Assembly: GCA_003154115.1 (NCBI GenBank)
Contig: PMCF01000171.1
Location: 10,903-63,675 of the forward strand
DNA: 52,773 nucleotides
From: Anaerolineae bacterium
GTDB taxonomy: Bacteria; Chloroflexota; Anaerolineae; Fen-1058
Direction: 5' to 3'
Positions 14,055 to 49,947 of the stretch are shown in pieces. Numbering within the stretch: position 1 is the first letter of the stretch; every line of letters begins with the position of its first letter. The notes beneath the pieces are model-generated. The model did no database searches. It saw nothing but the letters and a program-made list of their open reading frames with translations, and was not told the DNA's origin. Made by a program: the position numbers and the translations under genes.

Positions 14055-15992
14055 TCAATGCGAAACGATCACAGGCGTCTCACTTACGGCTGTAGTCGTG
14101 TTGAAGCCATCAGTGGCCTGCGCGCACACATAGTAGGTGCCCGGCGCAACGGTTGACGTGTTCCATACAAAGTTGTCAGGTCCTCCAGTAGAGGTGCCGC
14201 CGGTCACCAACGGCAAGAAGACCTTATACTGTCCAGTCGGCGGCAGATTACCCCCGCCTCCCTGCCATTGATAAATCGGCGTGCCGCTGCGCAAGCAGGC
14301 AGTTTGATCCTGGCTGGCGTAAAAATTGATGGTCTTGGGTGCAGCGTCCGTAACCTGTGACCAATGCACCGCGAAAGAGGCATTCGCTACATCGTCGCCC
14401 GTCAGCTTGACATCGTCAAGATGAATGGGCCACGGATCGACGCCTTCCAAGAAATCAAACCGAAACGCATATTTGAAGCCGGTCCAAAAACCGCCTGTCT
14501 GGGGTTCCGAGTCCCAGTATCCCCGCTCAACCCCTTTAGACAGATCCATTTGATAGGTGTTCCAGTCATCAAATACAATTATCGCTTTTGTGCTATCTGC
14601 TTGGCTCAAACTGTGCGGCCACTCACTAAAAAAGATCACGCGTGTCAACCAGCCGGCCGGATAAACTTGCCGGGCTGTATCCAGGGATAGCCGATCACCG
14701 CTGTTCGCCCACCAGGGAGAGCGATCGATTTTATAACGGTAGGTCAGGTATTTATATTTAGAAGTATCAATCGGCTTATTGCGATTAACGTGCAAGTAAA
14801 CAAATGGATCGCCCATGCTAGACACGTCATTGCTATCGAATCGTCCCACCGTGCCATACATCTCACCGTTGGCAAAACACGGACACGGCGACTCAACGTC
14901 ATGGGGGAAGCGATATAAATCGTTGCTGGTAAAAATCGAGTTGCTGTCGCTCATGTCCCAGGGAACGCCCAACTCCACCGTGGCATAATCTGGGCCGCTG
15001 GTCATGCTGGGCGCATCGATGTGCAAGAGCGGCGCAGGCTCGATCGTCAACGCCCCGCTGCTCACACCGCTGGCAGTTGTCGTGCCATGCCGCACCACGG
15101 CCCGCACATAGTAGCTGCCGGGCGGCAGGTAGGCCGTGCGCCAGTCATATTGATAGGTACCCGGTGTGTCGACGGGAATGCCCGTCTTGATCGAACCACA
15201 GAAGCTGTCGGCGTCAACTTGTGATGTGGTGTAGCACTCAAGATCCACCAGGTCTCCCGCCTGCGTGCCGGCCACAGAAAACTTGATCGAGTAGACAGGC
15301 GAGGTGGTAGGATCAACTAATCGGATCCAGTCAAATTGATAATTGCCCGTCGTCAAACCAAAGCGAAAGCCAATACCATAGATGGCGGGGTTGTTCGTCC
15401 AGGTAGATTTGGATGCGAGGTTGGCGTTATAGACCTGCCAGCCGGTTAGATTTTGATAGACGCCATTATAATGGTCAACCTCCAACGTGAAACTAATGTT
15501 AGAGTATGAGACTTGCCACCACGGGTTACTTCCAGCACCGGCATCGTTGGGGGCTTTGATCCGAAAACTGATCTGTTTGTATTTGCTGGTTTGAACGGGG
15601 TAGTTCCCGCCCGTCTTGCCAATTTCAGCGACCGTATTTCCGCCAATGCTGTACCCCGGATACAAGGGATAAATCTCTGAATGACCACCTGTCTCAGTAG
15701 TGGTTCCGCTCCAGATGCCATTGGCAAAAGAAATATTGTCGATGCCAAATGACTGCCAGATGAGGTCCGTGTGGCGATCCATGGTGCGTGGTTCGTGCAG
15801 CACTTGTGTGAAGTAATCGTCGCCTTCGCCAATCACGTCGCTCGCTGCGCCACTGGGGGTCAGTACAGTCACCGTCATAGCATCCGGTTCAGCGATAGCG
15901 GTTAAGGCCCGTCCGCCTAACCACACGCTACTTAAGCCAATGGCGATCAACACCAGCCAAGTTTTAGTTTTGTCAGCCAATTGCAGGTTCAT
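14055..15992 (-). CDS. Exported protein of unknown function with two internally repeated modules and an internal 'YKVFLPLV' motif
   Basis: N-terminal signal/TM segment, strong RBS GGAGGAGG, Trp/Tyr-rich beta-type sequence with a visible two-fold repeat. Confidence 0.75.
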   Translation of the reverse strand: MNLQLADKTKTWLVLIAIGLSSVWLGGRALTAIAEPDAMTVTVLTPSGAASDVIGEGDDYFTQVLHEPRTMDRHTDLIWQSFGIDNISFANGIWSGTTTETGGHSEIYPLYPGYSIGGNTVAEIGKTGGNYPVQTSKYKQISFRIKAPNDAGAGSNPWWQVSYSNISFTLEVDHYNGVYQNLTGWQVYNANLASKSTWTNNPAIYGIGFRFGLTTGNYQFDWIRLVDPTTSPVYSIKFSVAGTQAGDLVDLECYTTSQVDADSFCGSIKTGIPVDTPGTYQYDWRTAYLPPGSYYVRAVVRHGTTTASGVSSGALTIEPAPLLHIDAPSMTSGPDYATVELGVPWDMSDSNSIFTSNDLYRFPHDVESPCPCFANGEMYGTVGRFDSNDVSSMGDPFVYLHVNRNKPIDTSKYKYLTYRYKIDRSPWWANSGDRLSLDTARQVYPAGWLTRVIFFSEWPHSLSQADSTKAIIVFDDWNTYQMDLSKGVERGYWDSEPQTGGFWTGFKYAFRFDFLEGVDPWPIHLDDVKLTGDDVANASFAVHWSQVTDAAPKTINFYASQDQTACLRSGTPIYQWQGGGGNLPPTGQYKVFLPLVTGGTSTGGPDNFVWNTSTVAPGTYYVCAQATDGFNTTTAVSETPVIVSH

Positions 15993-16135
15993 CAGTTCCT
16001 CCTCCCGAGCTCATTGCGCTCTCGTTTGCAACGTTATGCGCTATTATCTTAACCCAGGCCAGGGAGGAAGATCAATAGGAGTAGAGGGTTTTTTTGACCG
16101 TAGCAATGAATCGTTAACGATCTTGCAAGCAATTC

Positions 16136-17425
16136 TTAATACTTGTGGGCTTCACCAGCGATCATTTTGTCAACACCGAGCAGTTGCGTAATTTGTTGCT
16201 GGGTCGCTTCATACTGTGGATCGAAGAAACTGAGATCGAAGGGACGGCCAAACAAAGCGAAGATATCTTCATCACGGCGGCGCCGCGCCGCTTGTACTGT
16301 GGCACGTTTCTCCAGCAGGTGTGGCAGTAGATCGACCACATCGTTCGCGGCCACCAGGTGCGCCAGCGCCAGGCGCGAGACCTGCTCATAACCAGGTTCC
16401 ACGCCGGGCAGCGTGTGTCGATCGGGCGGGGGATAAGCCGGATCGGTTTTGCCGAGTTTGCGCCGCACCAGTGAAATCGCGCGGCGATAAAATTCGATCG
16501 GGCCTTCTTCGCGCAGCAGCCTGATCCAGCGCGCACCTTTCACCGGCTTGGGCGGCGCGGCGATCTGCGGCGCAGGATAGCCAATCCGATAAGTGTTCGC
16601 ATCGATGCCGCTCATCAAGTACAAGCGCTTGATGACCAGCATCCACGCGGCCGGCCAGACGCGCGCCAGATTTTCGTCATCATAGTTTTTGATCATGGTC
16701 AGCATGGCGTTGCGTTCCAGCAGCGCACGCCGACTGGCATCGGGCACTTGCTGCTGTGTGCCATGATGCTTGTGAACCACCACGGCCGCGCCCACGTATA
16801 ACACTTTGTACCCCAACACCCACAGGCGCCAACCCAGATCGACATCTTCATAGTTGGCGAAGTAGTCTTCGTCGAAGCCGCCCGAGTCCAAAAAAATGTC
16901 GCGCTGCACGAGCAGCGCGCCGCCGCACGCAAAGATGACCGGGTGTGTCCCTTCATATTGAGACACGTTGCCGCGATCGTAACCTTCTTGATAGCCATAA
17001 CCGTAGAAGTTGATCGACGAACCGCCGAACTCGACGCGCTCCCCGGTGATGTTCATCAGGCGTGAGCCAGCGCAGATCACTTCGGGATCAGACCGGATGG
17101 CTTCGACAAGTTTACTCAGCCAATCGGGATACACGTGCGCATCGTTGTTGAGGAAGGCGATGGTGTCCGTGGAAGCTGCGCGCGCGCCGGCATTGTTGCC
17201 GCCTGCAAAACCCAGATTGTGATCGTTTAACACGAGCGTGACCTGCGGATAATGCTCGCGCATGAAAGCCACCGAATCATCCGTGGAGCCATTATCGACT
17301 AACATCAATGTCAACCGTTCGTGCGGGTAGTCCAGCGCCAATAACGAATCGAAACAATCGGCCAGATGTGTGCGGCCATTCCAATTCAAGACGATGACGG
17401 TAACCGTAGGCAATTGAGTTGTCAT
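16136..17425 (-). CDS. GT2 family glycosyltransferase
   Basis: 'VLNWNG', 'VDNGSTDDS', 'FLNNDA', 'YEDVDLGWR'. Confidence 0.9.
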   Translation of the reverse strand: MTTQLPTVTVIVLNWNGRTHLADCFDSLLALDYPHERLTLMLVDNGSTDDSVAFMREHYPQVTLVLNDHNLGFAGGNNAGARAASTDTIAFLNNDAHVYPDWLSKLVEAIRSDPEVICAGSRLMNITGERVEFGGSSINFYGYGYQEGYDRGNVSQYEGTHPVIFACGGALLVQRDIFLDSGGFDEDYFANYEDVDLGWRLWVLGYKVLYVGAAVVVHKHHGTQQQVPDASRRALLERNAMLTMIKNYDDENLARVWPAAWMLVIKRLYLMSGIDANTYRIGYPAPQIAAPPKPVKGARWIRLLREEGPIEFYRRAISLVRRKLGKTDPAYPPPDRHTLPGVEPGYEQVSRLALAHLVAANDVVDLLPHLLEKRATVQAARRRRDEDIFALFGRPFDLSFFDPQYEATQQQITQLLGVDKMIAGEAHKY

Positions 17426-18159: not shown

Positions 18160-18172
18160 CGACGCTGATCCT

Positions 18173-26606: not shown

Positions 26607-28631
26607 TCACGGCTGACAACCGTAGCGGAAGACAAAATCGGCCTGCAACGACTGATTGTTAATCGCTGCCCCACCCGCCGGATAAACATCTTGCGTCGTC
26701 CGCCATAGTCCAAACGCGTTACCGGGTTGCGCGTCTGCTGACACGAGCGACATTCGATAATGTTTGCCCCGTGAGTCCGGCAGCGGATCGAAAGCGATTC
26801 GCAGCCATTGACTATCCGCAATGGTTGATCCCGGGATGGCCCGGTCAAACAATTGCTGATTGGCGTCCATGTCCCTGAAGCGCACATTCAAAGTGCTGGT
26901 GATGCCGCGGCCGTAGGTCGCCGGCAAAATCTCAAAGTAACTCAATCCGGCGCACTCGCTGGTGAAGGTCTGGAAATACTTGTGCCCCGGGGTGATCTCA
27001 CCATCAGGAACTTCTGCGCGGAAATCGACTTGCGGATATGACCTAGCATGAGGGCATTCCCGCGCCAATTCCGGAGAAATGTAAAATCCTTCTTCGACCT
27101 TTTGATAGTTAGCGTCAAGATAAGTTTTGAGCGGGGCCAGGTAGTTGTCGGCCCAATAGAGATTCCACAACGGAAATTGCCAGTCCACATAGACAACGGT
27201 CTTGCCCGATTGCAGCACTTGAATAACTTCCGGCAGCGCCACTTCCGCCACCCAGGGAAAGACATACAGGTATTTTGAGACAGGCGGTAAGCCTGTCAAG
27301 TAATTGAAGATGGGGTCGCCCGGATAGTATGCGAGCGACACATCCGGCTGCCCGCACGCTAGATCACGACGAATATAATCAGCCACAGCCGTGTCGTGAG
27401 CGAAACTACCTTCATAGGAAAGTTGTGGCTGATTCAGGCGGAGGGTATCCGCACTGCGCCACAACAACCAGGCAAAGCCGTATCCGATTACAACGCGTGC
27501 TGCCCAGGGCAGGCCGGTGCGCCCCAACCAGGAAAGAATAGTCTGAAAACGGCCCGCCTTTCCCGTGACCGACTGGGGCACAGCGCCAGCATCAAGGTTC
27601 CCAACAACTAACCAGATCGCTACGAAACTGGCGCTCAGCGCAAACGGCAGGAGGCGAAAGGTGAATTGGTTTATCGCCAGCAGCGCCACTGCGTACAGAT
27701 AAAGGTACCCAGCCAATACGAACCGCCGGCGCAGTAACAAAATAGCAGAGGCAAGCAGCATCGTTACGCGGAAAAGAAACCCGGCAAACAACCAGGATGC
27801 CATCGGCTCACTCCGGTATAGCGGCATAGATGGATCAGTGCGCCAGGCGATTCCTCCTAAATCGAGCGCGCTGCTGGCTAGTTTCAGCAGGTCAGTGATC
27901 CGTAACGGTTGCGTGTAAGCGTATTTGGCATACACCTCGGCGTTAAAGCGGATGGTGTCCAGATAGAATGCTTCTGCCGAACCGGAGGCCAGCAGATAAA
28001 GGCCGTATGCCCCCAGCGCGATGGCGATGACGCCGCCGACCACCAGAGTCCCTTTTAATCGGGCGGGTGATAAGGCCAGAAAAAGAAGCGCGCAGCCGAT
28101 GGGATAAATTGCTAGTGGATCGCTCAATACCGCAATGGTCGCGAAGACTCCCAGCGTTAGCAATTCCTTCCGGCCCGGCGTAATGCGCTTCCCGAGAATG
28201 GACACCATGATAATCAAGATGACGGCCAAGCTGACGCCGCTAAACCCGGTGTACAGCACAAAGTTGCTGTAGAAAAACAACCCGACAATGCTCCAGAGAA
28301 CGCCCAATAAGCCAATCAGCACAGAGTAACGCGTCAAGACCATGGCCCACGCCAACGCGCCGATTTGAAAGAGCAAGACCGAGAGACGGGCCACGGCAAT
28401 GGAAGGTCCGAACAGTCCGGCAACCGCTGACGCCCAATAATAAGCGAACGGAAAGTGATGCGAAAAAATGTCTCGATAGAGAACTGAGCCACGCGACAGC
28501 AGCAGGCCCATCACCAGGTTATCGCTCTCATCACCGAACGTTCCCCAGAACAGGGTAATAACGCCAATGCCAAAAGCAACAAGCAATAGTAGTCCGCCGA
28601 GCCAGTTTGCGCGCAACCAACGTTTTAGCAT
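26607..28631 (-). CDS. GT-C-like (PMT/ArnT-type) membrane glycosyltransferase with C-terminal beta-rich domain
   Basis: First loop 'FGDESDN...VLYRDIFSHHFPFAYY', about 11 TM segments, extracytoplasmic C-terminus. Confidence 0.65.
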   Translation of the reverse strand: MLKRWLRANWLGGLLLLVAFGIGVITLFWGTFGDESDNLVMGLLLSRGSVLYRDIFSHHFPFAYYWASAVAGLFGPSIAVARLSVLLFQIGALAWAMVLTRYSVLIGLLGVLWSIVGLFFYSNFVLYTGFSGVSLAVILIIMVSILGKRITPGRKELLTLGVFATIAVLSDPLAIYPIGCALLFLALSPARLKGTLVVGGVIAIALGAYGLYLLASGSAEAFYLDTIRFNAEVYAKYAYTQPLRITDLLKLASSALDLGGIAWRTDPSMPLYRSEPMASWLFAGFLFRVTMLLASAILLLRRRFVLAGYLYLYAVALLAINQFTFRLLPFALSASFVAIWLVVGNLDAGAVPQSVTGKAGRFQTILSWLGRTGLPWAARVVIGYGFAWLLWRSADTLRLNQPQLSYEGSFAHDTAVADYIRRDLACGQPDVSLAYYPGDPIFNYLTGLPPVSKYLYVFPWVAEVALPEVIQVLQSGKTVVYVDWQFPLWNLYWADNYLAPLKTYLDANYQKVEEGFYISPELARECPHARSYPQVDFRAEVPDGEITPGHKYFQTFTSECAGLSYFEILPATYGRGITSTLNVRFRDMDANQQLFDRAIPGSTIADSQWLRIAFDPLPDSRGKHYRMSLVSADAQPGNAFGLWRTTQDVYPAGGAAINNQSLQADFVFRYGCQP

Positions 28632-28748: not shown

Positions 28749-30371
28749 TCAAGACGCTGGGCGTACAGCGGAACTCAAGGGTAGACCTGAGATGAAATGG
28801 CACGCCCGCCCCAGGTCAGGCGACACGTAGAACCCTCGTCCCGCGTCTAGATAGTTCGCTTCCAGATAAGTCTTGAGCTCGGCCAGGTAATCAGCCGCTT
28901 GGTATCTTTCCCACAGCACGGCGTTCCAATCGACATAGACAATGACTTTGCCGGTAGATAAACTGTGCAAGACGTCGGGCAGCGCGACTTCGGCCACCCA
29001 CGGAAACAGATACAGGTATTTCGATACGGGCGGGAACCCGGTCAAATAATTGAAGGTCGGCTCGCCCGGATAATACGCCAGTGACACATCCGTCCGGCCG
29101 CAGGCCAGATCGTTGCGGAGGTAATCGACCACGCTCAGATGAAAGCCCAGATTACGTGCGTATGATAACTGCCGTTGGTCTTGCATTAGCGTATCGGCGC
29201 TGCGCAGCACCAACCATAGGAAACCGCAGCCGATCACACAGCGCGCCGTCCAGGGCAGAACGGTCAGTACCAACCAGTTCGCGCGCCTGGCGATGCGATC
29301 ACTTCGTGATGATTTCTGAACCGTCGTTTCGCCATCAAGATTGTCAAAGATCAGCCACAACCCTACGAATCCGGCGGTCATGATAAACGCCGTGCTGTAA
29401 AAAGAGCCTTGATTCATCGCCAGCAACGTCACCGCGGACAGATACACAAAGCCGGCCAGAACAAAGCGGCGGTGCAGCGCCAGAATCAAAGCGGCCAGCA
29501 CGATCGTCAAACGGAATAAGAAACCCACAAACAGCCATTCGTCGAGCTGCCCGCGTTTCAAGATCATGGACGGATCGACTTGCCAGGCTGGCCCGCCCAG
29601 GTTGAGGGCGGTGCCGGTCAACTTCACGATGTCGTTTAAGCGCAAGGGTGACAGCGAGGTGTACTTGCTATACACCTCGGCGTTGAAGCGAATGGCATCC
29701 TGATAGAAGGCTTCAAGCGAACCGGAGGCAAGCAGATAAACGGCGTACAGCCCCAGGCCAAGCGTCACGAACGCGCCCACCTTGCAGCTGGTCTTGAAAC
29801 GCGCCGGCGACAAGGCCAGGAAGATCAACACGCACAGGACGGGATAGATCGCCAGCGGATCGCTCAGCATCGCAATGAGGGCGAAGAAGGCCACTGTCAG
29901 CCAGGTCTTGCGATCAACCGGCCGGCGCTTGCTTAAGATCGACACCATGACCACAAAGATCACGGTCAAGGCAACGCCGCTGAACAGCGTGTAAAGCACA
30001 TAGTTGCTGTAAAAGAACAAGCCGACGATGCTCCACAGAATGCCGAGCAGGCCGATCGGGATGAAATAGCGCGTCAGAACCATCGCCCACGCCAACGAGC
30101 CAATTTGAAAGAGCAAGGCCGAAACGCGCGCCGCGGTAATAGACGGACCGAACAATCCGGTGACAACCGCCGCCCAATAATAGGCAAACGGGAAGTGATG
30201 CGAGAAAACGTCCCGATAGAGCACTGAGCCACGCGACAACATTAGCCCGACTGCCAGGTTGTCCCCTTCGTCGGCAAACGTTCCCCAAAACAGCGCGCTG
30301 AGGCCAATGCCCAGCGCAATCAGCAAGGCCAATCCGCCCAACCAGCTATCTTGCGGCCAGCGCTTCAACAT
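28749..30371 (-). CDS. GT-C-like (PMT/ArnT-type) membrane glycosyltransferase, paralog of 26607-28631
   Basis: 'FADEGDN...VLYRDVFSHHFPFAYYW'; same topology but lacks the last domain. Confidence 0.65.
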   Translation of the reverse strand: MLKRWPQDSWLGGLALLIALGIGLSALFWGTFADEGDNLAVGLMLSRGSVLYRDVFSHHFPFAYYWAAVVTGLFGPSITAARVSALLFQIGSLAWAMVLTRYFIPIGLLGILWSIVGLFFYSNYVLYTLFSGVALTVIFVVMVSILSKRRPVDRKTWLTVAFFALIAMLSDPLAIYPVLCVLIFLALSPARFKTSCKVGAFVTLGLGLYAVYLLASGSLEAFYQDAIRFNAEVYSKYTSLSPLRLNDIVKLTGTALNLGGPAWQVDPSMILKRGQLDEWLFVGFLFRLTIVLAALILALHRRFVLAGFVYLSAVTLLAMNQGSFYSTAFIMTAGFVGLWLIFDNLDGETTVQKSSRSDRIARRANWLVLTVLPWTARCVIGCGFLWLVLRSADTLMQDQRQLSYARNLGFHLSVVDYLRNDLACGRTDVSLAYYPGEPTFNYLTGFPPVSKYLYLFPWVAEVALPDVLHSLSTGKVIVYVDWNAVLWERYQAADYLAELKTYLEANYLDAGRGFYVSPDLGRACHFISGLPLSSAVRPAS

Positions 30372-33057: not shown

Positions 33058-34578
33058 TTAGCGGAACAGCGCGGGCAGATAAACCTGGTGCGTACTGACC
33101 AGCGCCCAGCCAATCGCAAGGTTGTTGTTTTCATCCGTCTCGATGATGCTATGCGTCGAATCCACTTCGACGTAGAATTCGTGCAAGCCGGGTGATGAGA
33201 CGGTCCACGTCATACTGACTGTCGCAGCGCCTCCGCAACCGCTCAAGCCGCGCGGAATTTGCGCCTGCCCGATCGGCACGCCGGTGCCCGGCGGCCCATC
33301 ATAAAACGTTACCGTGAAGGGCACGCTAACCGAAATGTTGCCTTGATTGCCCACCGTCGCCTTCAGCATAAACGGGACAGGCTGTCCGGCCCACGGTGCA
33401 GCACTGCTGTCCGCCACGACATTCAAATCGACCGCGGGAGGTTGCTGAGTGGTATACGCGGCAAACGCCTGCCCCAACGGATTCAGGGCATGGGTATTGG
33501 TGTAAAACAGAATGCCGCCATAATTTATATCGTCAGAGCTATACCAGGACCAACGCTGCACTAAGCGTCCGCCGTCAGCACGATATCCAATATTGGGATC
33601 GACCAGCGTGCGTAGAATGTCGAACGTGTCGAGCATAAACGTTGCCGTGCGCGCCTCGGTCATCGGCACGCCGTTTTCATCCACATAAGGGTCGCCATCG
33701 ATGTAAGGCGGATAAGGAAACAACGTGCCATATTCGGTGATAAGCAGCGGCACATCGCGATAGCCATTGCGCGCCAGCCACTGGCGAAAATCGATCAGGC
33801 GCTGGCGGAAAATCCCCACATCAAACATTTGCGAGTAAGAGTACAACTTGCCGCGGGTGGCATTGATACCCGGCGGCACATACGCGCCCCATACTTCAAG
33901 CGATCCACCGTTATCGATCGCATCAGGATCATCGGAGGTGATCTCGCGCAGGATGTAGGAATGGGTATTCCACAGATCAGCGGGCAGGGTTTGGCTATAG
34001 TTGGCCCGATAGGCAGCCAACACCCGATCGAGATACTGAAAGCGGAGCGGCGTAGGCTGCACGATACCGCCCGCGCCAATCCTGGCAGTCGGATCGTAAC
34101 TTTTGATCAAACCATAGAGATGATGATAGGCCCGCGCGTACAATTCCGGTACCATGTTATCTTGCATGGGGCTATCCGGCTCATTGCCGATCAGCCAGGT
34201 AGCGCCTGGGTTCGCGAACACGGCGGCCTGCAAAGTGGCCGTGGGGGGCGAGAAGGTGAAGCCGTCGATGGCGGTTTGAACACGCACCACTTGCACATAG
34301 TCCGTCTGGCTAGGATGTGTTGGCGTAATGGTCGTGTGCCAATCCAAATACCAACCTAAGTTCAGAGCAGCCACATTGTAATCGACTGGTCCGCCCGCCC
34401 CCATCCCAAACCGGCAATTGGGATAGGCCGCACTTGCGCCGAGAGCCACCGGCGCGATCGAGCGGGCGTAGGCCGATTGGACGTCCGGGGCCCTCAACAA
34501 GCCGATGGCGACCGTTACGCCCAACGCGCTTAATCCGACAATCAGGCTGATCCGTTTGAGTAAAGTAGGTACCATCAC
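33058..34578 (-). CDS. Exported clan GH-A glycoside hydrolase-like protein with C-terminal CARDB-like domain and 'VYLPALFR' tail
   Basis: Signal peptide; 'WLIGNEPD' and 'LITEYG' putative catalytic glutamates; 'VGNQG...VDSTHSIIETDENNN' CARDB pattern. Confidence 0.7.
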   Translation of the reverse strand: MMVPTLLKRISLIVGLSALGVTVAIGLLRAPDVQSAYARSIAPVALGASAAYPNCRFGMGAGGPVDYNVAALNLGWYLDWHTTITPTHPSQTDYVQVVRVQTAIDGFTFSPPTATLQAAVFANPGATWLIGNEPDSPMQDNMVPELYARAYHHLYGLIKSYDPTARIGAGGIVQPTPLRFQYLDRVLAAYRANYSQTLPADLWNTHSYILREITSDDPDAIDNGGSLEVWGAYVPPGINATRGKLYSYSQMFDVGIFRQRLIDFRQWLARNGYRDVPLLITEYGTLFPYPPYIDGDPYVDENGVPMTEARTATFMLDTFDILRTLVDPNIGYRADGGRLVQRWSWYSSDDINYGGILFYTNTHALNPLGQAFAAYTTQQPPAVDLNVVADSSAAPWAGQPVPFMLKATVGNQGNISVSVPFTVTFYDGPPGTGVPIGQAQIPRGLSGCGGAATVSMTWTVSSPGLHEFYVEVDSTHSIIETDENNNLAIGWALVSTHQVYLPALFR

Positions 34579-36026
34579 GGGTTATAGTGGATATAGATGG
34601 GATTGCGATCGACCATTAATTTGATCTTGCCGTCGATGACGCCGTCACTGGCATCGGTGAGAATCTGCAAGCTGCCCGTTAAATGATCGGTCACACCGAT
34701 CTTGGCGTCGTTCACGGTATAGTGAGCCGAAGAAGTACAATCGGTAGGCAGAGTACCTATGCCAACCACCAGGCTAGGGCAATCGTACCAGATCACGTCG
34801 ACGCGTTCTGGACTGGATGTGCCGACTTTGTCGGTGAAGACGTAGCCTTCCAGATAGGACGAGCGAGTTTCGGCGAAGGTGAGCGGCCGATCATAGCGCG
34901 CTGCGTGCAGCTGCTCATTGAGGCGCACCAGCGCGTAATAGCTTGGGCGCGGCTGATAGGCGTTTTCTGCACCGTCCAACAAGCCGGGCTGATCAGGATC
35001 GACGTCGGTCATGGCATACCAGTTAGTCATCAGCAGGTTGGCCGCGGCGCCGCGTATCATGGTCTTGGGCACATAGCGCGCCTGAACCGCCTCCCCGCCC
35101 CAATCTGTAGGCGGTCGCGGAGAAACGACCCAACTGGTTTCGGTGCTCATCACGGGACGCGAGTAACCGTGCGCGGCCAGCATCTGCCGAAAACCGGCGG
35201 CCTTGCCAATGATGTCGCGCCCGTACTTTTCCCAGTTCGCCCGATAGACAGGATAGTAATGGAAATTGCCGATGTCAAAGCAGGTCCCCGTGCAGGCGGT
35301 GAGCATGTCATTCAAGAAATTGCGATCGAAGCTGCCGCCTTCGTCGGTAAACCAATCCAGCGCAATGCCGCCCATAACCACCTGTGCCTGGGGATTGGCG
35401 CTCTTAATGGCCGAATACGCCGCCTTTAAGTGCGCGGCGTACACTGCCCCCTGCCTGCCAAAGTTGGAGATATTATCCGGCTCGTTGTAGATTTCCCAGT
35501 AATGCACTTGCGGATAGCGGGCCGCCACTGCGCCGACAAACTCCTGAAAATCGGCCAGGTTGTTTACCGGCCCGTGAGGTTGGGCAGACGCCCACGTCGG
35601 ATTGCCTTCCAGGGTCACCACCAGGTTCACGCCGGCCGTGACCGCGTTGCTAATATTTTTATCCAGCGTCTCCCACTGGTAAAACTCCGGCGTGGTGTTA
35701 GTTGGCTCAATGTCAAACCAGGACACGCGCAGCCGCATCCAGCGCACGCCGGCAGCGACCGCATAGTCATAGCCCTTCTCCGCATCCAACCGATCATACA
35801 TCTGTACCGCCCAGGGGCCATACGGGCCGCTGGTATCATGGTTGGCTATTAAGGGCAACCAGGTCGTGTAAGTCAAGGCACTCGTGTTAACCTGAGAGCG
35901 AATCACGGGGCTCTTAACGCTGCTATCTAGCTGAGCCGCCACCGGACGAGTCAGCCAGAAGAAACCCGCGGCCAACAACACCAGGCTGGCAAACATCATC
36001 TTGAACCGATTATTTATCACTGCCAT
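34575..36026 (-). CDS. Exported GH39/GH5-like (clan GH-A) glycoside hydrolase with N-terminal 'TWLPLIA' motif
   Basis: Signal peptide; 'GVRWMR...W..IEP', 'WEIYNEPD', 'FHYY', 'STETSW'. Confidence 0.75.
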   Translation of the reverse strand: MAVINNRFKMMFASLVLLAAGFFWLTRPVAAQLDSSVKSPVIRSQVNTSALTYTTWLPLIANHDTSGPYGPWAVQMYDRLDAEKGYDYAVAAGVRWMRLRVSWFDIEPTNTTPEFYQWETLDKNISNAVTAGVNLVVTLEGNPTWASAQPHGPVNNLADFQEFVGAVAARYPQVHYWEIYNEPDNISNFGRQGAVYAAHLKAAYSAIKSANPQAQVVMGGIALDWFTDEGGSFDRNFLNDMLTACTGTCFDIGNFHYYPVYRANWEKYGRDIIGKAAGFRQMLAAHGYSRPVMSTETSWVVSPRPPTDWGGEAVQARYVPKTMIRGAAANLLMTNWYAMTDVDPDQPGLLDGAENAYQPRPSYYALVRLNEQLHAARYDRPLTFAETRSSYLEGYVFTDKVGTSSPERVDVIWYDCPSLVVGIGTLPTDCTSSAHYTVNDAKIGVTDHLTGSLQILTDASDGVIDGKIKLMVDRNPIYIHYNP

Positions 36027-36069
36027 GAAATATCATCACCTCGTAGAAAGATGTACGTGAACGGATTGT

Positions 36070-37227
36070 TTAGCGAAGAATGACCGGTAAAAAGATATGC
36101 TGTGTTTCATAAGCCGCCAGCCAGACTCCGCCATCGTCTGCCAACGCTATCCCAGTAGGCCGCAGCCCTGTCAACGGCAGCGGGTACGACGTAAACTGAT
36201 GGCTGCCAGGGGGGACGAACACAAACCGCCCCAACTGCCCCAATCTATCTTGTTGAGATACCCACAACGTGTTATTCATCATGCGGGTCAAAAACATCGG
36301 CGCCGCCAGCGGCAAAAACTGCCGTGGAGCTGTGCCTAAGGTTCCTTTGAAAGACAGGCCCAAGGCGCCCCGGCCTGGTTCAGTAAACCACAAATTAGAT
36401 GACGCATCAATAACCATATCGGTGGGGGCATAGCCCGGTGGAATGCCCGAGGAAATCTGCACCTCTTGACTGCCCGGCGTGAGTAACCCGATGCTATTAC
36501 TCATTGGCGCAGCAAACGCGATCTGATAGCTCGTAGGTGGGTTGATCACGATCACATCAATGCCGAAAGGATCAGCTGGTCCTAGCGCGAGTGAACTTGG
36601 CGGGTGAGTTGGATATTCTTGAAACACGTAATCAACCGTCGATGTGATCACGAGCCGATACAAACGCTTGGCATATTGTCCAGCGATCCAGATCGAGCCG
36701 TCTGGCGCGGCGTTGAGATCGGCCAGTCCGGCATTGGCTGGCAGGCCGTGCCCGTCAAACTCGTCGATGTGACCGGTGGCCGCATTCAGGCGCCCAACTC
36801 GATTCGCCCCGCGTTCCGTGAACCAGACATCGGCCCCGTCGGCCGTGATCAAAAATGGGCCGCTGTTTGTCGGCGCAGAGAGGAGATACTCGGCGGCCAG
36901 GGTATAACTTGTAGTACTCGTGAAGACAACATGGGCGATACGGTTAAGACCATACTCGGTCACCCAGACATGTGTGGGATTAGTGCCGCTTACCGCCACG
37001 CCGGTCGGCAGCGCACCGCTCGACAATGGTATCGTGATGAACGTCTGTGTGTCCGGCATGAAAAGATAGAGGTAACTGGCATTGGGTACGGGCGAGTCGA
37101 GAATGTTAAGAGGCTTGACACCCGCATGCGAGACCTCGGTCGTGCCATTCCACACGAGAGCCAGACCGGCCAGTGCCAGGCCAGCCGTCAACAGCGCACG
37201 CTTCCATACTGAAAAGTTGCGAGTCAT
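36070..37227 (-). CDS. Exported Vgb-like beta-propeller protein with C-terminal 'IFLPVILR' tail
   Basis: Signal peptide; repeated 'VWFTE.GANRVGRL', 'PDGSIW', 'LWFTEP', 'DGGVW' blades; RBS AAGGAGG. Confidence 0.75.
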   Translation of the reverse strand: MTRNFSVWKRALLTAGLALAGLALVWNGTTEVSHAGVKPLNILDSPVPNASYLYLFMPDTQTFITIPLSSGALPTGVAVSGTNPTHVWVTEYGLNRIAHVVFTSTTSYTLAAEYLLSAPTNSGPFLITADGADVWFTERGANRVGRLNAATGHIDEFDGHGLPANAGLADLNAAPDGSIWIAGQYAKRLYRLVITSTVDYVFQEYPTHPPSSLALGPADPFGIDVIVINPPTSYQIAFAAPMSNSIGLLTPGSQEVQISSGIPPGYAPTDMVIDASSNLWFTEPGRGALGLSFKGTLGTAPRQFLPLAAPMFLTRMMNNTLWVSQQDRLGQLGRFVFVPPGSHQFTSYPLPLTGLRPTGIALADDGGVWLAAYETQHIFLPVILR

Positions 37228-46510: not shown

Positions 46511-46528
46511 CGCGCCCGACATAGAAAC

Positions 46529-47239
46529 ATGACACTTTATCAACTCCGCGACATCCAACATCGCTACGGCACGCGCACCATCCTCGATCTGCCCGCGCTC
46601 GACATTCAGCGCGGTGAGGTGCTGGGGATCGTCGGACCCAGCGGATCGGGCAAGAGCACGTTATTACGCCTGCTGCAATTTCTGGAACCACCGACCAGCG
46701 GCTCGTTCACTTTCGATGGGACACTGCTCGACGGTTCCGTTCCGCTGGCAGTGCGCCGCCGCATTGTGACTGTATTTCAGCACCCGGCCCTGCTCGATCG
46801 ATCGGTGTTTGACAACGTGGCCTATGGCTTACGCTTACGCCGTCAACGCGACGGGCATGACTTGATCATGCAAGCGCTTGAACGCGTCGGCCTGCACGAC
46901 TATGCCCAGACACGGGCCAAGACTCTATCGGGAGGTGAAGCACAACGCGTCGCACTCGCGCGCGCGCTCGTTTTGAATCCAGCCGCTCTGCTGTTGGATG
47001 AACCGACGGCCAATCTCGATCCTTACAACGTCGGCTTGATCGAAGAGATCATTCGTGGACATGGTGACACCACGGTGGTGCTGGTAACTCACAACACCTT
47101 TCAAGCGAAGCGCCTGGCCGATCGCGTGGGGTTGCTGCTGAACGGAAAATTGATCGAACTCACCACCGCCGATCGGTTCTTCAACCACCCGATTGATCCC
47201 CGCACCCGATCGTTCATCAACGGCGAGATGGTCTATTAA
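46529..47239 (+). CDS. tupC: Tungstate ABC transporter ATP-binding subunit
   Basis: Walker A GPSGSGKS, LSGGE, LLLDEPTANLDP, C-terminal 'FINGEMVY'; start ATG 46529. Confidence 0.88.
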   Translation: MTLYQLRDIQHRYGTRTILDLPALDIQRGEVLGIVGPSGSGKSTLLRLLQFLEPPTSGSFTFDGTLLDGSVPLAVRRRIVTVFQHPALLDRSVFDNVAYGLRLRRQRDGHDLIMQALERVGLHDYAQTRAKTLSGGEAQRVALARALVLNPAALLLDEPTANLDPYNVGLIEEIIRGHGDTTVVLVTHNTFQAKRLADRVGLLLNGKLIELTTADRFFNHPIDPRTRSFINGEMVY

Positions 47240-47279
47240 CCTCACTTTTTCCGGACGTGCTGGAAGAGGCAGGTGGGGC

Positions 47280-47308
47280 TTGCCAATCATCCCTCACGCG
47301 TGTATCAT
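47280..47308 (+). promoter_or_regulatory. Promoter for a probably leaderless metallophosphoesterase mRNA
   Basis: TTGCCA-17 bp-TATCAT, 6 nt before in-frame GTG 47315. Confidence 0.5.
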
Positions 47309-47314
47309 CACCCT

Positions 47315-48550
47315 GTGACTGACCCAACTGTCGAGGCTCCTCCACTGGGCACCGAGTCCGAAATGGCCGGGACGCGTAATCGCATTCCGGGCGTGGCCAG
47401 CGCTCGCTTCCATCTCATCTTGCTGTTCAGCGTCAAGCTCAGCCGGCTGAACGGGATCTGGCTTGCCGTCTACATCGAATTCTTCACGCTGCTCACCTTG
47501 TTCACCTGGGCGACCCGCATGGAATCGTTGGACGTCGGTCTGGCGGTGGGCATTGCTTTCCTGACCTTGGCCGTGCTCGACTGGATCGCTTTAGCGCAGC
47601 TGCCGCGCCGCGGCCGATCGTTCGGGCCGGTCGCACCACCCTTATTCGTGTTGGTTCCGCTGCGCGCCGCCGTGACCATCGTGCCGGTGCTCGTACCGCT
47701 CAGCCCGCTGTGGATTGCGACCCTGGTAGAAGTCGGCAACTTCGCACTGACGGGCTATGTGCTCGACAGTTTGTGGGGGGAACCCTTTCGTCTATCTATC
47801 ACGCGCCTCACCCTGCGATCGTCTAAACTGCGCGGCGCGCCGCCGCTACGCGTGCTGCACGTGAGCGATTTCCACGTCGAACGCCTGACCCGCCGCGAAG
47901 AAAAGATGATCAAGTGGATTAACGAACTGCGGCCCGATCTCATCGTGTACACCGGCGATTTGTTGAATTTTTCTTATATCAACGATGAACGCGCGCGCGC
48001 CGATTGCCTGCGCTTGTTGACGCAGTTGCACGCCCCGCTGGGCGTGTATGGCGTCCCTGGCACGCCCCTCATCGATACGCCCGAAGTGCAGGCAGCACTT
48101 TATCCCCAGACACCGCACATTCATTGGTTGAAGAATGAAACGATCGAGATTGAGGGCTACCCCCAGCTGCAGCTCATCGGGCTGACCTGCACCCATGATC
48201 CGACGTTAGATGCGCCTAGATTCGCGCAGGTACGCGCCACCGTACCGTCCGAAAAATTCACGCTGCTGTTGTATCATTCACCTGACTTGATGCCAGAGGC
48301 TGTCCGCGCCGGAATTGATTTGTATCTGTGCGGCCACACGCATGGCGGGCAAATCCGGCTGCCCCTGTGGGGCGCCATCGTGACCGGGTCGCTGTATGGC
48401 AAGCGCTATGAAATGGGCCGCTATCAAAGCGGCAGCACCACGTTGTATGTCAGTCGCGGCATTGGCCTGGAGGGAAAAGGCGCACCCCGTATGCGCTTTT
48501 TGTGTACGCCGGAAATGGAACTGTTTGAACTACGGGGAAGCGAACCATGA
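47315..48550 (+). CDS. Membrane-anchored metallophosphoesterase (YkuE/YaeI-like)
   Basis: N-terminal TM helices; 'SDFH', 'TGDL', 'HSPD', 'GHTHGGQ', 'VSRGIG'; the usual GNH[DE] motif appears as 'GTPLID'. Confidence 0.85.
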   Translation: MTDPTVEAPPLGTESEMAGTRNRIPGVASARFHLILLFSVKLSRLNGIWLAVYIEFFTLLTLFTWATRMESLDVGLAVGIAFLTLAVLDWIALAQLPRRGRSFGPVAPPLFVLVPLRAAVTIVPVLVPLSPLWIATLVEVGNFALTGYVLDSLWGEPFRLSITRLTLRSSKLRGAPPLRVLHVSDFHVERLTRREEKMIKWINELRPDLIVYTGDLLNFSYINDERARADCLRLLTQLHAPLGVYGVPGTPLIDTPEVQAALYPQTPHIHWLKNETIEIEGYPQLQLIGLTCTHDPTLDAPRFAQVRATVPSEKFTLLLYHSPDLMPEAVRAGIDLYLCGHTHGGQIRLPLWGAIVTGSLYGKRYEMGRYQSGSTTLYVSRGIGLEGKGAPRMRFLCTPEMELFELRGSEP

Positions 48551-48576
48551 AATCTCACTTTTAAGGAGAGTATGCG

Positions 48577-49947
48577 ATGAAATTACGATTTGTGGTTGTG
48601 CTGGGCTTGGTCGTGTTGAGTGTTTTGGCGCTCAGTTTGACGGCGGTGGCTCGGCCCGGCGCGCCGGCCAGCTTGACCACCAATCCGTCCGGGGTGTTGC
48701 GCTCATCAACCGCGTTGACTTACTCCGTTTATATGCCTGTGTTGTTTAGTTGCTACCCGATCTTGGGATATGATCCGTTTTATTCAACCTATCAAGGCGA
48801 CATGGTCGTGATCCATGCTGATGCAGCGTGGCGTGGTTGCCCCCTGGTTACCGGCAGCGGCGTGACCATTGCCATTATCGACACAGGAGTCGATCTCACC
48901 CATCCCGATCTCAAGGCGAACCTCGTTGCCGGTTACGACTTTGTGGATTCAGATGGGACGCCACAAGACGGCAACGGCCATGGCACCAATGTTGCCGGTA
49001 TTGCGGCGGCGGCGCTCAATGGAGTTGGCGTGTCAGGCGTAGCGCCAGCAGCCAAGATTCTGCCCGTACGTGTGCTGGACAACGATGGCAGGGGCTCTAC
49101 CAGTGGTGTGGCGGCCGGCGTCACTTACGCGGCCGATCGCGCGCAGATCTTGAATCTGAGCCTTGGCTCAGTCTATCCCAACACGACACTGCAAAACGCG
49201 ATCAACTACGCCGCGAATACCAAAGGGCGGTTGGTGGTAGCGGCCTCCGGGAATTGTGGTGACTTCTATTATCCTTACAATGGCTGCACGGTTCAGAATC
49301 AGCCGTCGTATCCGGGCGCCTGGCCGAACGTGCTGGCCGTCGCCGCCACCGACAACTATGACGGCCACGCCAGCTTCTCAACCTCAGGCAGCTATGTCGA
49401 TGTGGCGGCGCCCGGCGTCGACATCTACAACACCTACATGGGCAACTCTTACTATACCGAAAGCGGCACCTCGCAGGCGACGCCGCACGTGGCCGGACTG
49501 GCCGCCTTGATCTGGGCGAAGTATCCTTCCTACACAGCGGCGCAAGTATGGAATCGCATCACGTCCACGGCGGTCGATCTGGGTACAGCCGGTCGCGACA
49601 ATGTTTTCGGCGCGGGCCGCATTGACGTGAAGAAAGCGCTGGGGATCACCCTGGCGAGCGTGAACGAAGTCGCGGCGCAACTCAAGCAAGTTGAGCCAGC
49701 CGCCCCGATCGATCAACGCGCGGCTCCCATCGCGGCGGGCCGCGTCATCGTGAAATTCAAGTCGACGGGCGCGGCGGCGCAAACCTTGCAGCAGATGAGC
49801 GGCGTCGTCGTCATTAACTCGATCCACGGCATCGACGCGCAGGTGTTGCAGGTGCCGGCCGGCCAGGAATGGCAAGTGGTCGATCAACTGCGCGCGCAGT
49901 CCGGCGTGGAATATGCCGAACCCGATTACGTGATCAGCATCCAATAG
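48577..49947 (+). CDS. Secreted S8 subtilisin-like serine protease with C-terminal prodomain-like module
   Basis: Signal peptide; triad IIDTG / HGT / SGTSQATPHVAG; oxyanion 'ASGN'; RBS AAGGAG. Confidence 0.92.
   Translation: MKLRFVVVLGLVVLSVLALSLTAVARPGAPASLTTNPSGVLRSSTALTYSVYMPVLFSCYPILGYDPFYSTYQGDMVVIHADAAWRGCPLVTGSGVTIAIIDTGVDLTHPDLKANLVAGYDFVDSDGTPQDGNGHGTNVAGIAAAALNGVGVSGVAPAAKILPVRVLDNDGRGSTSGVAAGVTYAADRAQILNLSLGSVYPNTTLQNAINYAANTKGRLVVAASGNCGDFYYPYNGCTVQNQPSYPGAWPNVLAVAATDNYDGHASFSTSGSYVDVAAPGVDIYNTYMGNSYYTESGTSQATPHVAGLAALIWAKYPSYTAAQVWNRITSTAVDLGTAGRDNVFGAGRIDVKKALGITLASVNEVAAQLKQVEPAAPIDQRAAPIAAGRVIVKFKSTGAAAQTLQQMSGVVVINSIHGIDAQVLQVPAGQEWQVVDQLRAQSGVEYAEPDYVISIQ

What the first reader, a model, noticed from the sequence alone, without database searches (positions are those of the whole stretch)
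14055..49947. Short mobile 'xLPL' peptide shared by five unrelated exported proteins: candidate Chloroflexota envelope sorting/docking signal
Seen: five signal-peptide proteins with unrelated folds carry a [YFW]-[LM]-P-x-[LIV] peptide, usually preceded by a short hydroxyl/aromatic-rich stretch. The copies are QYKVFLPLVTG (internal, in a Gly/Pro linker, ~14202-14228), HQVYLPALFR* (C-terminus, 33058-33090), TYTTWLPLIAN (just after the signal peptide, ~35844-35870), QHIFLPVILR* (C-terminus, 36070-36100) and TYSVYMPVLFS (just after the signal peptide of the S8 protease, ~48721-48750). It has no TM helix or basic tail, so it is not an LPXTG, PEP-CTERM or GlyGly-CTERM signal. Inference: a position-independent peptide like this behaves as a non-covalent docking strand (e.g. 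beta-strand addition to an S-layer/sheath scaffold) or a recognition tag for glycosylation/anchoring. Four of the five carriers lie in the glycan locus. I recall such tails being common in Chloroflexota proteins but know of no characterised receptor.
Basis: partly seen in the sequence, partly recalled or inferred. Interest (0 to 1): 0.8.

Follow-up and report, generated by a model that had tools for sequence, protein, structure and literature searches.

The report
YLP-box sorting tag on exported proteins
Five exported proteins in this Chloroflexota window carry the "YLP-box", a ten-residue address tag that a curated protein-family library already lists as a putative sorting motif, and whose reader and mode of action are still unknown.

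Summary
The genome holds about 115 proteins ending in [VIL]-[YF]-L-P-[LVI]-[VI]-x-[RK]-COOH. Codons and stop codons vary, so selection acts on the protein.

This is the YLP-box (NCBIfam NF050076/NF053834, "putative sorting motif"). This scan reported it on other DNA at least ten times. I found no paper on it.

New here:
- Copies after signal peptides and between domains are conserved.
- Relatives fuse the P0004-like and P0003-like genes, with boxes at the junction.
- 142 of 145 carriers have one box.
- The tag almost excludes lipoprotein signals.
- An AlphaFold model leaves the tail outside the fold.

Sortase is not needed. PorU-like C25 peptidases co-occur strongly with the tag and usually carry it themselves, but some tag-rich genomes lack them. 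GT-C genes show no link.

Best reading: a position-tolerant post-Sec sorting or retention tag with an unidentified reader.

The parts
14055..15992 (-). P0001, a 645-aa exported protein of no firm family (weak Big_7; beta-sandwich or CBM-like by Atlas lead) that carries an internal YLP-box
14199..14228 (-). Internal YLP-box YKVFLPLVTG in a Gly/Pro linker, followed by a conserved mini-domain of about 48 aa
   Evidence: Matrix score 18.6. NF050076 16.2 bits (cut-off 15) and NF053834 14.1 bits (cut-off 10) on a 31-aa excerpt. 15.7 and 13.6 bits in whole-genome scans. Kept in 6 of 7 orthologs.
33058..34578 (-). P0002, an exported glycoside hydrolase (Glyco_hydro_cc catalytic core plus CARDB domain) with a C-terminal YLP-box
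33061..33090 (-). C-terminal YLP-box HQVYLPALFR, followed by the stop codon
   Evidence: Matrix score 19.4. 11 of 11 orthologs end in a box-like tail.
34575..36026 (-). P0003, an exported GH5-like hydrolase with an N-proximal YLP-box
35841..35870 (-). Diverged N-proximal YLP-box YTTWLPLIAN between the signal peptide and the GH5 barrel
   Evidence: Matrix score 10.5. 10 of 11 orthologs have a box at this place, most of them closer to consensus.
36070..37227 (-). P0004, an exported Vgb-lyase-like beta-propeller with a C-terminal YLP-box. In four relatives a P0003-like GH5 domain is fused to an N-terminal domain; in three of them this is a P0004-like propeller.
36073..36102 (-). C-terminal YLP-box QHIFLPVILR, followed by the stop codon
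   Evidence: Matrix score 22.1. Kept in 72 of 86 homologs at score 12 or more. Coil with falling pLDDT after the last strand in the AlphaFold model.
48577..49947 (+). P0005, an exported S8 subtilase with an N-proximal YLP-box and a C-terminal fervidolysin-type prodomain-like module
48721..48750 (+). Diverged N-proximal YLP-box YSVYMPVLFS
   Evidence: Matrix score 7.1. 7 of 7 close orthologs have the peptide in the same alignment columns with the Pro invariant, 5 of 7 scoring 14 or more.

Best explanation
The peptide is the YLP-box: a ten-residue linear tag, consensus (Y)-x-[VIL]-[YF]-L-P-[LVI]-[VI]-x-[RK], on proteins exported by the Sec pathway in part of the phylum Chloroflexota.

Most likely mechanism, inferred. 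The tag stays exposed and unfolded at a chain end or a domain boundary. After export, a conserved but unidentified envelope component reads it in extended form. That component holds the protein at, or routes it to, the outer layers of the multilayered envelope. Binding is probably non-covalent, as groove binding or strand addition.

Shown:
- The tag is selected at the protein level.
- It is restricted to exported proteins.
- There is one per polypeptide.
- It tolerates different positions.
- It is conserved across orthologs and across a gene split or fusion.
- It is nearly exclusive with lipoprotein signals.
- It lies outside the fold in one model.

Inferred: that it is read by a receptor, that binding is non-covalent, and that the destination is the outer envelope.
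For: 1. Protein-level signal. 93 of 417 loose-pattern hits pile up at the C-terminus, with a strong consensus and free synonymous codon and stop-codon use.

2. Exported proteins only.
- 89 of 120 carriers against 806 of 4538 other proteins have a signal-peptide-like N-terminus.
- Non-terminal hits scoring 16 or more in signal-peptide-like proteins: 4 after the signal peptide (0.2 in shuffles) and 9 in the body (0.6 in shuffles).
- In other proteins: 3 against 2.8.

3. Any position, but always at a boundary. The census at score 12 or more gives 115 C-terminal, 5 N-proximal and 28 internal copies. Internal copies are followed by N, G, S or P linkers.

4. One tag per chain. 142 of 145 carriers have one box and 2 have a tandem pair.

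5. Gene split or fusion.
- Four relatives fuse a P0003-like GH5 domain to an N-terminal domain (a P0004-like propeller in three), and all four carry a box or box remnant at the junction. One has two tandem boxes there.
- Here the genes are separate, and each keeps one box: the P0004 tail and the P0003 N-terminal box.
- A mere inter-domain cleavage site would not need to survive the split on both products.

6. Alternative to lipid anchoring. 1 of 77 strong carriers has a lipobox against 216 of 932 other signal-peptide-like proteins (Fisher p = 1.4e-7). None of the 77 has a C-terminal membrane-helix anchor.

7. Not part of the fold. In the AlphaFold2 model of P0004 (56-sequence alignment, mean pLDDT 88.3) the last strand is residues 368-374. 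The tail 375-385 is coil, with block pLDDT falling from 80 to 60.

8. No known sorting enzyme is obligatory.

9. Tag-bearing lineages include filamentous Chloroflexota. Cryo-tomography of such bacteria shows extra envelope layers of unknown make-up (PMC7332563, passages; PMC13319060, sections 2.2-2.3).
Against: - No receptor was found. Neighbour enrichment in this genome gave only cytoplasmic regulators, and gene neighbourhoods in a small closed genome were housekeeping genes.
- C-terminal placement dominates (115 of 148), and 77 of those 115 tails end exactly two residues after the core, on Arg or Lys in most. That looks more like a terminal recognition or processing signal than a free docking peptide.
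- A PorU-like peptidase family tracks the tag closely.
- The export calls rest on a crude hydrophobicity rule and a home-made gene finder. 28 of the 115 C-terminal carriers scored as lacking a signal peptide, many of them fragments.
- Only one structure was modelled.
Confidence: 0.45

Rival explanations
1. The tag is the substrate signal of a dedicated peptidase or transpeptidase: the PorU-like C25 cysteine peptidases of these bacteria. The enzyme would cleave at or next to the box and attach or release the cargo, as PorU does with the C-terminal domain of type IX secretion cargo.
For: Co-occurrence in a 301-genome phylum sample: C25 (PF01364, E <= 1e-10) is found in 25 of 28 tag-rich genomes against 18 of 273 others. 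Most of the 18 belong to lineages that have a few tags.

Among 41 relatives, all six genomes with tail counts at control level also lack C25.

In the common form this tail follows the conserved LLGDP end of the domain.

The catalytic-type His and Cys are invariant. The closest solved relative is PorU 6ZA2, E = 6e-41.

The tag ends in Arg or Lys, which is gingipain-type P1 specificity (recalled knowledge).

Earlier scan notes report C25 genes next to YLP-tailed giants.
Against: Tag-rich genomes exist with no C25 match.
- At E <= 0.01: G267 (3 contigs, 97% complete, 13 tails against 1 control), G291 and G024.
- At E <= 1e-10: G018 (14 against 1), G021 and G040.

The asymmetry (C25 is almost never found without tags, but tags are found without C25) fits C25 being a dependent cargo.

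77 of 115 terminal tags end exactly two residues after the core, in most cases at the Arg/Lys, so there is no bond after it to cleave.

N-proximal tags would leave only a short peptide attached.

The association is confounded by shared ancestry, because few clades carry both traits.

The self-docking fold and the complex prediction could not be run.
Confidence: 0.22
2. The tag is an ultrashort export signal for a second step: crossing the shared outer layer or sheath of filamentous Chloroflexota. It would be functionally like the type IX C-terminal domain, with no retention role.
For: - Cargo are hydrolases, proteases and giant adhesin-like proteins, which must act outside the cell.
- The tag is mostly C-terminal.
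- It is nearly absent from lipoprotein-signal proteins.
- Its lineages include bacteria with an enigmatic outer layer.
Against: - Conserved N-proximal and internal copies are unusual for a terminal translocation signal.
- No candidate translocon was found.
- One same-class family (f21, 20 genomes) has tail counts at control level. I could not name this family or check its envelope.
Confidence: 0.15
3. The tag is a cis-acting folding, chaperone or propeptide element: a hydrophobic core with a basic flank that keeps the chain export-competent or guides domain folding. It would have no dedicated receptor.
For: - The sequence resembles generic chaperone-binding peptides, a Leu-rich core flanked by a basic residue (recalled knowledge).
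- It sits at domain boundaries.
- In the S8 family it replaces the usual N-terminal prodomain position.
Against: - The lineage restriction is sharp while the export machinery is universal.
- One tag per chain whatever the chain length, from 96 to more than 6000 aa.
- Exclusivity with lipoprotein signals.
Confidence: 0.1
4. The tag is a recognition or acceptor site for protein glycosylation by GT-C enzymes.
For: - Four carriers lie in or beside a polysaccharide locus.
- The genome has 70 PMT_2-type GT-C hits.
- 5 of 16 polytopic neighbours of carriers that I annotated are PMT_2 or TMEM260-like.
Against: - There is no proximity enrichment: 5 of 70 within 5 kb against 8.8 expected.
- The window's polytopic protein is found in 11 of 301 genomes and not in tag-rich families f38 and f23.
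- No hydroxyl residue is invariant: Tyr at the core is Phe in 24 of 93 tails, and the upstream Tyr is present in only 24 of 93.
Confidence: 0.04
5. It is chance, a DNA repeat, or an ordinary strand of each fold.
For: Two of the five copies score at background level on their own.
Against: - Massive C-terminal excess.
- Free codon use.
- Ortholog conservation of all five copies.
- Coil in the model.
Confidence: 0.01

Closest known systems
YLP-box putative sorting motif (NCBIfam NF050076 'sort_motif_YLP', 11 positions; NF053834 'ultrashort_CTERM', 10 positions)
   Same: Same consensus, same kind of carrier, same phylum. The P0001 copy passes both curated cut-offs. The models give 81 and 67 matches in this genome.
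   Different: - The other four window copies were not reported by either model. They are diverged or filtered forms, recognised here by a genome-specific matrix and by orthology.
- The library gives only a name. It gives no mechanism or partner, and I found no paper.
- Single hits are not evidence. The models ring in 10-11 of 14 control genomes, and a conserved cytoplasmic protein gives false hits.
Type IX secretion C-terminal domain with PorU (C25 peptidase, PDB 6ZA2) as sortase, Bacteroidota (PMC4560394, search listing and abstract only)
   Same: - A C-terminal signal on diverse secreted enzymes and giant adhesins.
- A PorU-like C25 peptidase is co-distributed with the signal and itself carries it.
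   Different: - The signal is 10 residues, not a folded domain (the type IX domain size is recalled knowledge).
- It also works at N-proximal and internal sites.
- The organisms are not known to have an outer membrane or type IX machinery.
- Some tag-rich genomes lack C25.
LPXTG cell-wall sorting signal / sortase
   Same: An L-P core in a short signal on surface proteins. Sortases are present in this genome.
   Different: - No membrane helix or charged tail follows the motif.
- Sortase is found in 207 of 301 genomes, including all 20 of the tag-poor family f21.
- Sortase was not found in G109, a one-contig genome with 17 tails.
Tripartite C-terminal signals (PEP-CTERM/exosortase, GlyGly-CTERM/rhombosortase, PGF-CTERM/archaeosortase)
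   Same: Lineage-specific C-terminal tags on many unrelated exported proteins.
   Different: There is no transmembrane segment, and no exosortase match in this genome. A separate helix-bearing tail (PTA-[IV]-x-L, then a helix, then an Arg-rich end) exists alongside it in this genome.

Membership tests
YLP-box (NCBIfam NF050076 / NF053834) | Score over the curated cut-off of NF050076 (15 bits) or NF053834 (10 bits) | tested here: inconclusive
   The P0001 copy scores 16.2 and 14.1 bits on a 31-aa excerpt, and 15.7 and 13.6 bits in genome scans. On the whole protein it scores 12.0 bits, below the cut-off. The P0002, P0003, P0004 and P0005 copies were not reported at E <= 10. Speed filters on such short models may hide them.
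YLP-box (NCBIfam NF050076 / NF053834) | Core [YF]-L-P-[LVI]-[VI]-x-[RK], as derived here from 93 tails of this genome | tested here: met
   P0004 fits fully, and P0002 fits apart from Ala and Leu in the two hydrophobic places after Pro. P0001 lacks the basic end. P0003 has Trp and no basic end. P0005 has Met for Leu. Their orthologs restore the consensus.
YLP-box (NCBIfam NF050076 / NF053834) | Carried by exported proteins of Chloroflexota | tested here: met
   All five carriers have signal-peptide-like N-termini. A source labels a P0004 homolog 'Anaerolineae bacterium'. Named tag-bearing genomes are Chloroflexota.
YLP-box (NCBIfam NF050076 / NF053834) | Extreme C-terminal position (the 'ultrashort_CTERM' model) | tested here: inconclusive
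   2 of the 5 window copies and 115 of 148 genome copies are C-terminal. The rest are N-proximal or internal but conserved.
LPXTG / sortase | Pentapeptide followed by a hydrophobic helix and a basic tail; dependence on a sortase | tested here: not met
   Tails end 2-6 residues after the core. G109, G052 and G083 have genuine boxes and no sortase match.
PEP-CTERM / exosortase | PEP motif, transmembrane helix, Arg-rich end; an exosortase gene | tested here: not met
   No helix follows the motif. PF09721 gives 0 matches in this genome, which is 96% complete.
Type IX secretion CTD / PorU | A folded C-terminal beta-sandwich domain as the signal (domain size is recalled knowledge) | tested here: not met
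   The signal is about 10 residues and is modelled as coil.
Type IX secretion CTD / PorU | A C25-family PorU-like peptidase present with the cargo | tested here: inconclusive
   Present in 25 of 28 tag-rich genomes and usually tagged itself. No match in G267, G291 or G024.
Type IX secretion CTD / PorU | Outer-membrane translocon and attachment complex (Sov, PorV, PorZ, PorQ) | not tested
   I made no search for these.

The most novel reading that the evidence does not exclude
The YLP-box is the address label of an undescribed, Chloroflexota-specific surface-display system that acts after Sec export.
- A still unknown core receptor in the enigmatic outer envelope layers reads the ten-residue tag at either end of a chain or between domains.
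- In most lineages, a PorU-like C25 peptidase cassette is itself delivered by the tag and then trims or couples a subset of cargo. In this genome the cassette is two C25 peptidases, a membrane-anchored stalk protein, a PqqD-like protein and an S24/S26-like peptidase.

This would be a monoderm-type functional analogue of the type IX attachment complex, built around the shortest protein-sorting signal known.
Probability: 0.25. Interest if true: 0.8.

Novelty: new member of a known kind. Interest (0 to 1): 0.42.

Why it matters
How filamentous Chloroflexota place enzymes and adhesins in or beyond their unusual multilayered envelope is unknown. A ten-residue tag found on about a hundred proteins per genome is the most direct handle on that question, and would also be a very compact tool for surface display.

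What this analysis adds:
- The tag is not strictly C-terminal.
- It follows a one-per-chain rule.
- It survives a gene split or fusion.
- It almost excludes lipoprotein signals.
- Sortase is ruled out as its reader, and GT-C enzymes show no link to it.
- The PorU-like peptidase fits a frequent, tag-dependent companion better than the obligatory reader.

The tag occurs on C25 orthologs of cultured Herpetosiphon, Chloroflexus and Oscillochloris species, so the open question is testable at the bench.

Tried and rejected
1. DNA repeat or terminator overlap. Rejected, because codons, stop codons and downstream DNA all vary.

2. Sortase as reader. Rejected.

3. Exosortase. No match in this genome.

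4. Neighbour enrichment for a partner in this genome.
- The only enriched family is large cytoplasmic adenylate-cyclase/AAA/TPR regulators: 8 of 10 members lie within four genes of a carrier, p = 2e-6.
- There were only 34 polytopic neighbours, no more than a rough expectation.

5. 'Minimal system' genomes with one or two HMM hits. The hits were a conserved cytoplasmic 942-aa protein, so false positives.

6. Comparing two genomes of one genus, G109 and G179, as tag-plus against tag-minus. This failed because both have tails.

7. Gene neighbourhoods of tag clusters in the one-contig genome G109. Only housekeeping genes, with no recurrent candidate.

8. GT-C link. Not supported.

9. Link to the published grappling-hook protein of Litorilinea. 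This genome's 6416-aa carrier is a tandem-95/LamG-type giant, and only one of its 14 relatives lists DUF11, so no link was made.

10. Tools that could not be used.
- Complex prediction (C25 domain with the P0002 CARDB-plus-tail) was not available.
- So the N-terminal copies have no model, and whether the C25 tail docks into its own active site is open.

11. Supplementary proteomics tables of PMC13319060 were closed. They might show whether C-terminal tag peptides survive on mature proteins.

Full report
**What is in the window.** The five peptides exist as described, each in a long ORF with a signal-peptide-like start.
- P0001: no firm family, perhaps beta-sandwich or CBM-like.
- P0002: a Glyco_hydro_cc catalytic core plus a CARDB domain.
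- P0003: GH5-like.
- P0004: a Vgb-lyase-like beta-propeller.
- P0005: an S8 subtilase with a fervidolysin-type prodomain-like module at its C-terminus.

P0002 and P0003 are distant relatives within the TIM-barrel GH-A clan, so there are four fold classes rather than five. P0001 to P0004 lie on the minus strand, in or directly beside a large polysaccharide locus (21-37227). The locus encodes a Wzx-like flippase, GT1/GT2/GT4 transferases, methyltransferases, a Wzt ATPase and three polytopic proteins with no Pfam match.

**Is it more than chance?** I laid the whole genome (7.7 Mb, 460 contigs) and called 6504 genes with a home-made codon-usage finder. This set is rough, with 86% coding density.
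Of these, 93 sit with at most four residues behind them.
- Aligned, the 93 tails give Y(24)-x-[V47 I18 L16]-[Y67 F24 W2]-L93-P93-[L52 V21 I11]-[V46 I38 L9]-x-[R57 K27]. The stop follows directly in 70 of them.
- All Leu, Pro and Arg codons and all three stop codons are used, and the downstream DNA is unrelated. Selection therefore acts on the peptide, not on a DNA repeat.
- A matrix built from these tails finds 148 copies scoring 12 or more: 115 C-terminal, 5 just after signal peptides and 28 internal.
- Pooled over all proteins, non-terminal hits are not enriched: 32 real against 34 shuffled at 12 or more.
- Within signal-peptide-like proteins they are enriched. At 16 or more there are 4 against 0.2 after the signal peptide and 9 against 0.6 in the body. 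In other proteins the figures are 3 against 2.8.
- Carriers are signal-peptide-like in 89 of 120 cases, against 806 of 4538 for other proteins.
- Of the 28 C-terminal carriers scored as lacking a signal peptide, many are short 3' fragments or are interrupted by N runs.

**The five copies one by one.** Matrix scores are 18.6 (P0001), 19.4 (P0002), 10.5 (P0003), 22.1 (P0004) and 7.1 (P0005). The two N-proximal copies would not stand alone, and orthologs decide.
- P0003: 10 of 11 orthologous ORFs in relatives carry a box directly before the GH5 barrel, mostly nearer consensus. The eleventh has it at the C-terminus.
- P0005: all 7 close orthologs have the peptide in the same alignment columns, with the Pro invariant. 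The 4 more distant S8 relatives, which have an ordinary N-terminal prodomain, have none.
- P0001: 6 of 7 orthologs keep the internal box before a conserved mini-domain of about 48 residues. That is 5 of 6 without the unpublished genome G015.
- P0002: 11 of 11 orthologs end in a box-like tail.
- P0004: 72 of 86 homologs down to 33% identity score 12 or more at the end, often with a few extra, unconserved residues after the Arg/Lys.

In the window the loose pattern also hits three non-exported or polytopic proteins, at background scores.

**What it is called.** Earlier notes of this scan pointed to two NCBIfam models, which I checked.
- NF050076 'sort_motif_YLP' and NF053834 'ultrashort_CTERM' are both described as 'YLP-box putative sorting motif-containing protein'.
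- The P0001 copy passes both cut-offs on an excerpt.
- The models give 81 and 67 matches in this genome.
- The other four window copies are not reported, so they are diverged or filtered forms.
- The models are noisy. They ring in 10-11 of 14 control genomes, and a conserved cytoplasmic protein gives a false hit in one family.
- Full-text searches for the model names and for 'YLP-box' found no paper. Two broader searches found nothing relevant.

The scan has therefore met this motif on other DNA at least ten times. The motif as such is not new.

**Anatomy that bears on mechanism.**
- One tag per chain: 142 of 145 carriers have a single box and two giants have a tandem pair.
- The tag sits at chain ends or at domain boundaries. 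Internal copies are followed by N, G, S or P.
- In four relatives a P0003-like GH5 domain is fused to an N-terminal domain in one ORF of 776-819 codons. In three of them that domain is a P0004-like propeller. All four carry a box or box remnant at the junction, and one has two boxes in tandem.
- In this genome the genes are separate. The first ends in a box and the second begins, after a new signal peptide, with a box. A site needed only to cut two domains apart should not persist on both products. A label that each exported chain needs would.
- The tag almost excludes lipoprotein signals: 1 of 77 against 216 of 932, p = 1.4e-7. It never coincides with a C-terminal helix anchor.
- In an AlphaFold2 model of P0004 (56-sequence alignment, mean pLDDT 88.3) the propeller ends with strand 368-374. 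The tag is coil with falling confidence. It is therefore not an ordinary core strand.

**Who has it.** A DNA pattern for 'tag plus stop', with the reversed pattern as control, gives 63 against 8 in this genome.
- In an even sample of 301 Chloroflexota genomes, 28 are clearly tag-rich, by the criterion of sum at least 6 and at least three times the control.
- They fall in a few families: f1, f23, f25, f26, f30, f38, f39, f54 and f75.
- Family f21 of the same class (20 genomes) and many other families are at control level.
- In the window's own family all 21 genomes searched have matches, up to 112 against 4.
- The pattern misses tails with extra residues, so the counts are lower bounds. The HMM counts are capped at 31 per genome.
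- Named genomes with tagged proteins include Herpetosiphon, Chloroflexus, Oscillochloris, Ca. Chloroploca, Caldilineaceae, Brevefilum and Ca. Leptofilum.

The 301-genome tallies include four genomes flagged unpublished (G078, G201, G220, G297). None of them is among the tag-rich or C25-positive genomes.

- Sortase: three genes here. It occurs in 207 of 301 genomes, including all of tag-poor f21. It was not found in G109, a one-contig, 99%-complete genome where 7 of 7 HMM hits are genuine C-terminal tags, nor in G052 and G083. Rejected.
- Exosortase: no match.
- GT-C enzymes: no proximity enrichment and no co-distribution.
- Neighbour enrichment gave only cytoplasmic regulators.
- C25 PorU-like peptidases are the one striking companion.
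  - They occur in 25 of 28 tag-rich genomes against 18 of 273 others, and most of those 18 are in lineages with a few tags.
  - Among 41 relatives, the six genomes at control level all lack C25.
  - The peptidase itself ends in a YLP-like tail in 13 of 17 unnamed and 39 of 46 named orthologs.
  - The catalytic-type His and Cys are invariant.
  - PorU (6ZA2) is the closest solved relative.
  - But G267 (3 contigs, 97% complete, 13 tails against 1), G291 and G024 have no C25 match at E <= 0.01. G018, G021 and G040 have none at E <= 1e-10.
  - C25 almost never occurs without tags, while tags do occur without C25. This asymmetry fits a tag-dependent cargo or accessory enzyme better than the obligatory reader.
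  - Related genomes are not independent, so the 2x2 test overstates the link.

**Mechanism.** I commit to a position-tolerant post-Sec sorting or retention tag that is read in extended form by an unidentified envelope component (0.45). The rivals are a C25 peptidase or transpeptidase signal (0.22), an outer-layer export signal (0.15), a cis-acting folding or chaperone element (0.10), a glycosylation tag (0.04) and chance (0.01). Cryo-tomography papers show that filamentous Chloroflexota have extra, chemically undefined envelope layers shared by the filament. This gives such a tag somewhere to point (PMC7332563, passages; PMC13319060, sections 2.2 and 2.3).

**Limits.**
- The gene calls and signal-peptide calls are heuristic.
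- Only one structure was modelled.
- The complex predictor and the second fold were unavailable.
- Supplementary proteomics tables were closed.

**Verdict.** The feature is a new set of members, two of them diverged, of an already catalogued but mechanistically unexplained kind.

Noticed in passing
window 34575-37227 (-); loci L004, L005, L006, L011: P0004 (propeller) and P0003 (GH5) are adjacent separate genes here. In four relatives a P0003-like GH5 domain is fused to an N-terminal domain in one ORF of 776-819 codons; in three of them that domain is a P0004-like propeller. In another relative a P0003-like and a P0002-like part share one 1053-codon ORF (L009/L102).
   Followed up: yes
window 49732-49926 (+): The S8 subtilase P0005 carries a fervidolysin-type 'N-terminal' prodomain-like module at its C-terminus, conserved in 7 close orthologs. 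More distant relatives have it at the N-terminus. This looks like a permuted prodomain arrangement.
   Followed up: partly
window 9100-11022, 26607-28631, 28749-30371 (-): Three polytopic membrane proteins in the polysaccharide locus have no Pfam family. Two are 62%-identical paralogs. Relatives of the 674-aa one were found in only 11 of 301 Chloroflexota genomes, mostly over its C-terminal soluble part.
   Followed up: partly
G000 contigs C360 and C301 (outside the window): The genome has 70 matches to the GT-C family PMT_2, including arrays of 13 on one contig and 8 on another. This is an unusually large expansion.
   Followed up: no
G000:C347:600-13500 (locus L174): A cassette in this order: polytopic protein, C25 peptidase (729 aa, no tag), Pro-rich stalk protein with a C-terminal helix, PqqD-like protein (92 aa, no signal peptide), S24/S26-like peptidase, C25 peptidase with propeptide and YLP tail (1155 aa), then a Wzz/tyrosine-kinase gene. 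Earlier scan notes describe the same module in other genomes.
   Followed up: partly
G000:C62:1-2400 (locus L175): A YLP-tailed C25 peptidase fragment is followed by an Ice_binding-like exported protein with a C-terminal helix and then a sortase.
   Followed up: no
G000, eight contigs (e.g. C184:5778-10163, C334:10812-15185, C437:9420-13733): Large cytoplasmic regulators (double adenylate-cyclase domains, AAA ATPase, TPR) lie within four genes of YLP carriers in 8 of 10 family members, p = 2e-6. They may control expression of these exoproteins.
   Followed up: partly
G000, e.g. C117:15918-20099, C260:3614-4951, C419:2331-4112, C298:1614-3497, C169:24876-28763: A second, different C-terminal module recurs on at least eight exported proteins: P-T-A-[IV]-x-L, then a spacer, a membrane helix and an Arg-rich end. 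Earlier notes of the scan describe similar tails elsewhere.
   Followed up: no
loci L035, L036, L037 (genomes of family f36): A conserved protein of 916-942 aa without a signal peptide contains RR-[TV]-YLPLV-[IL]-R 127 residues before its end, and scores over the NF050076 cut-off. This is a recurrent false positive of the model.
   Followed up: yes
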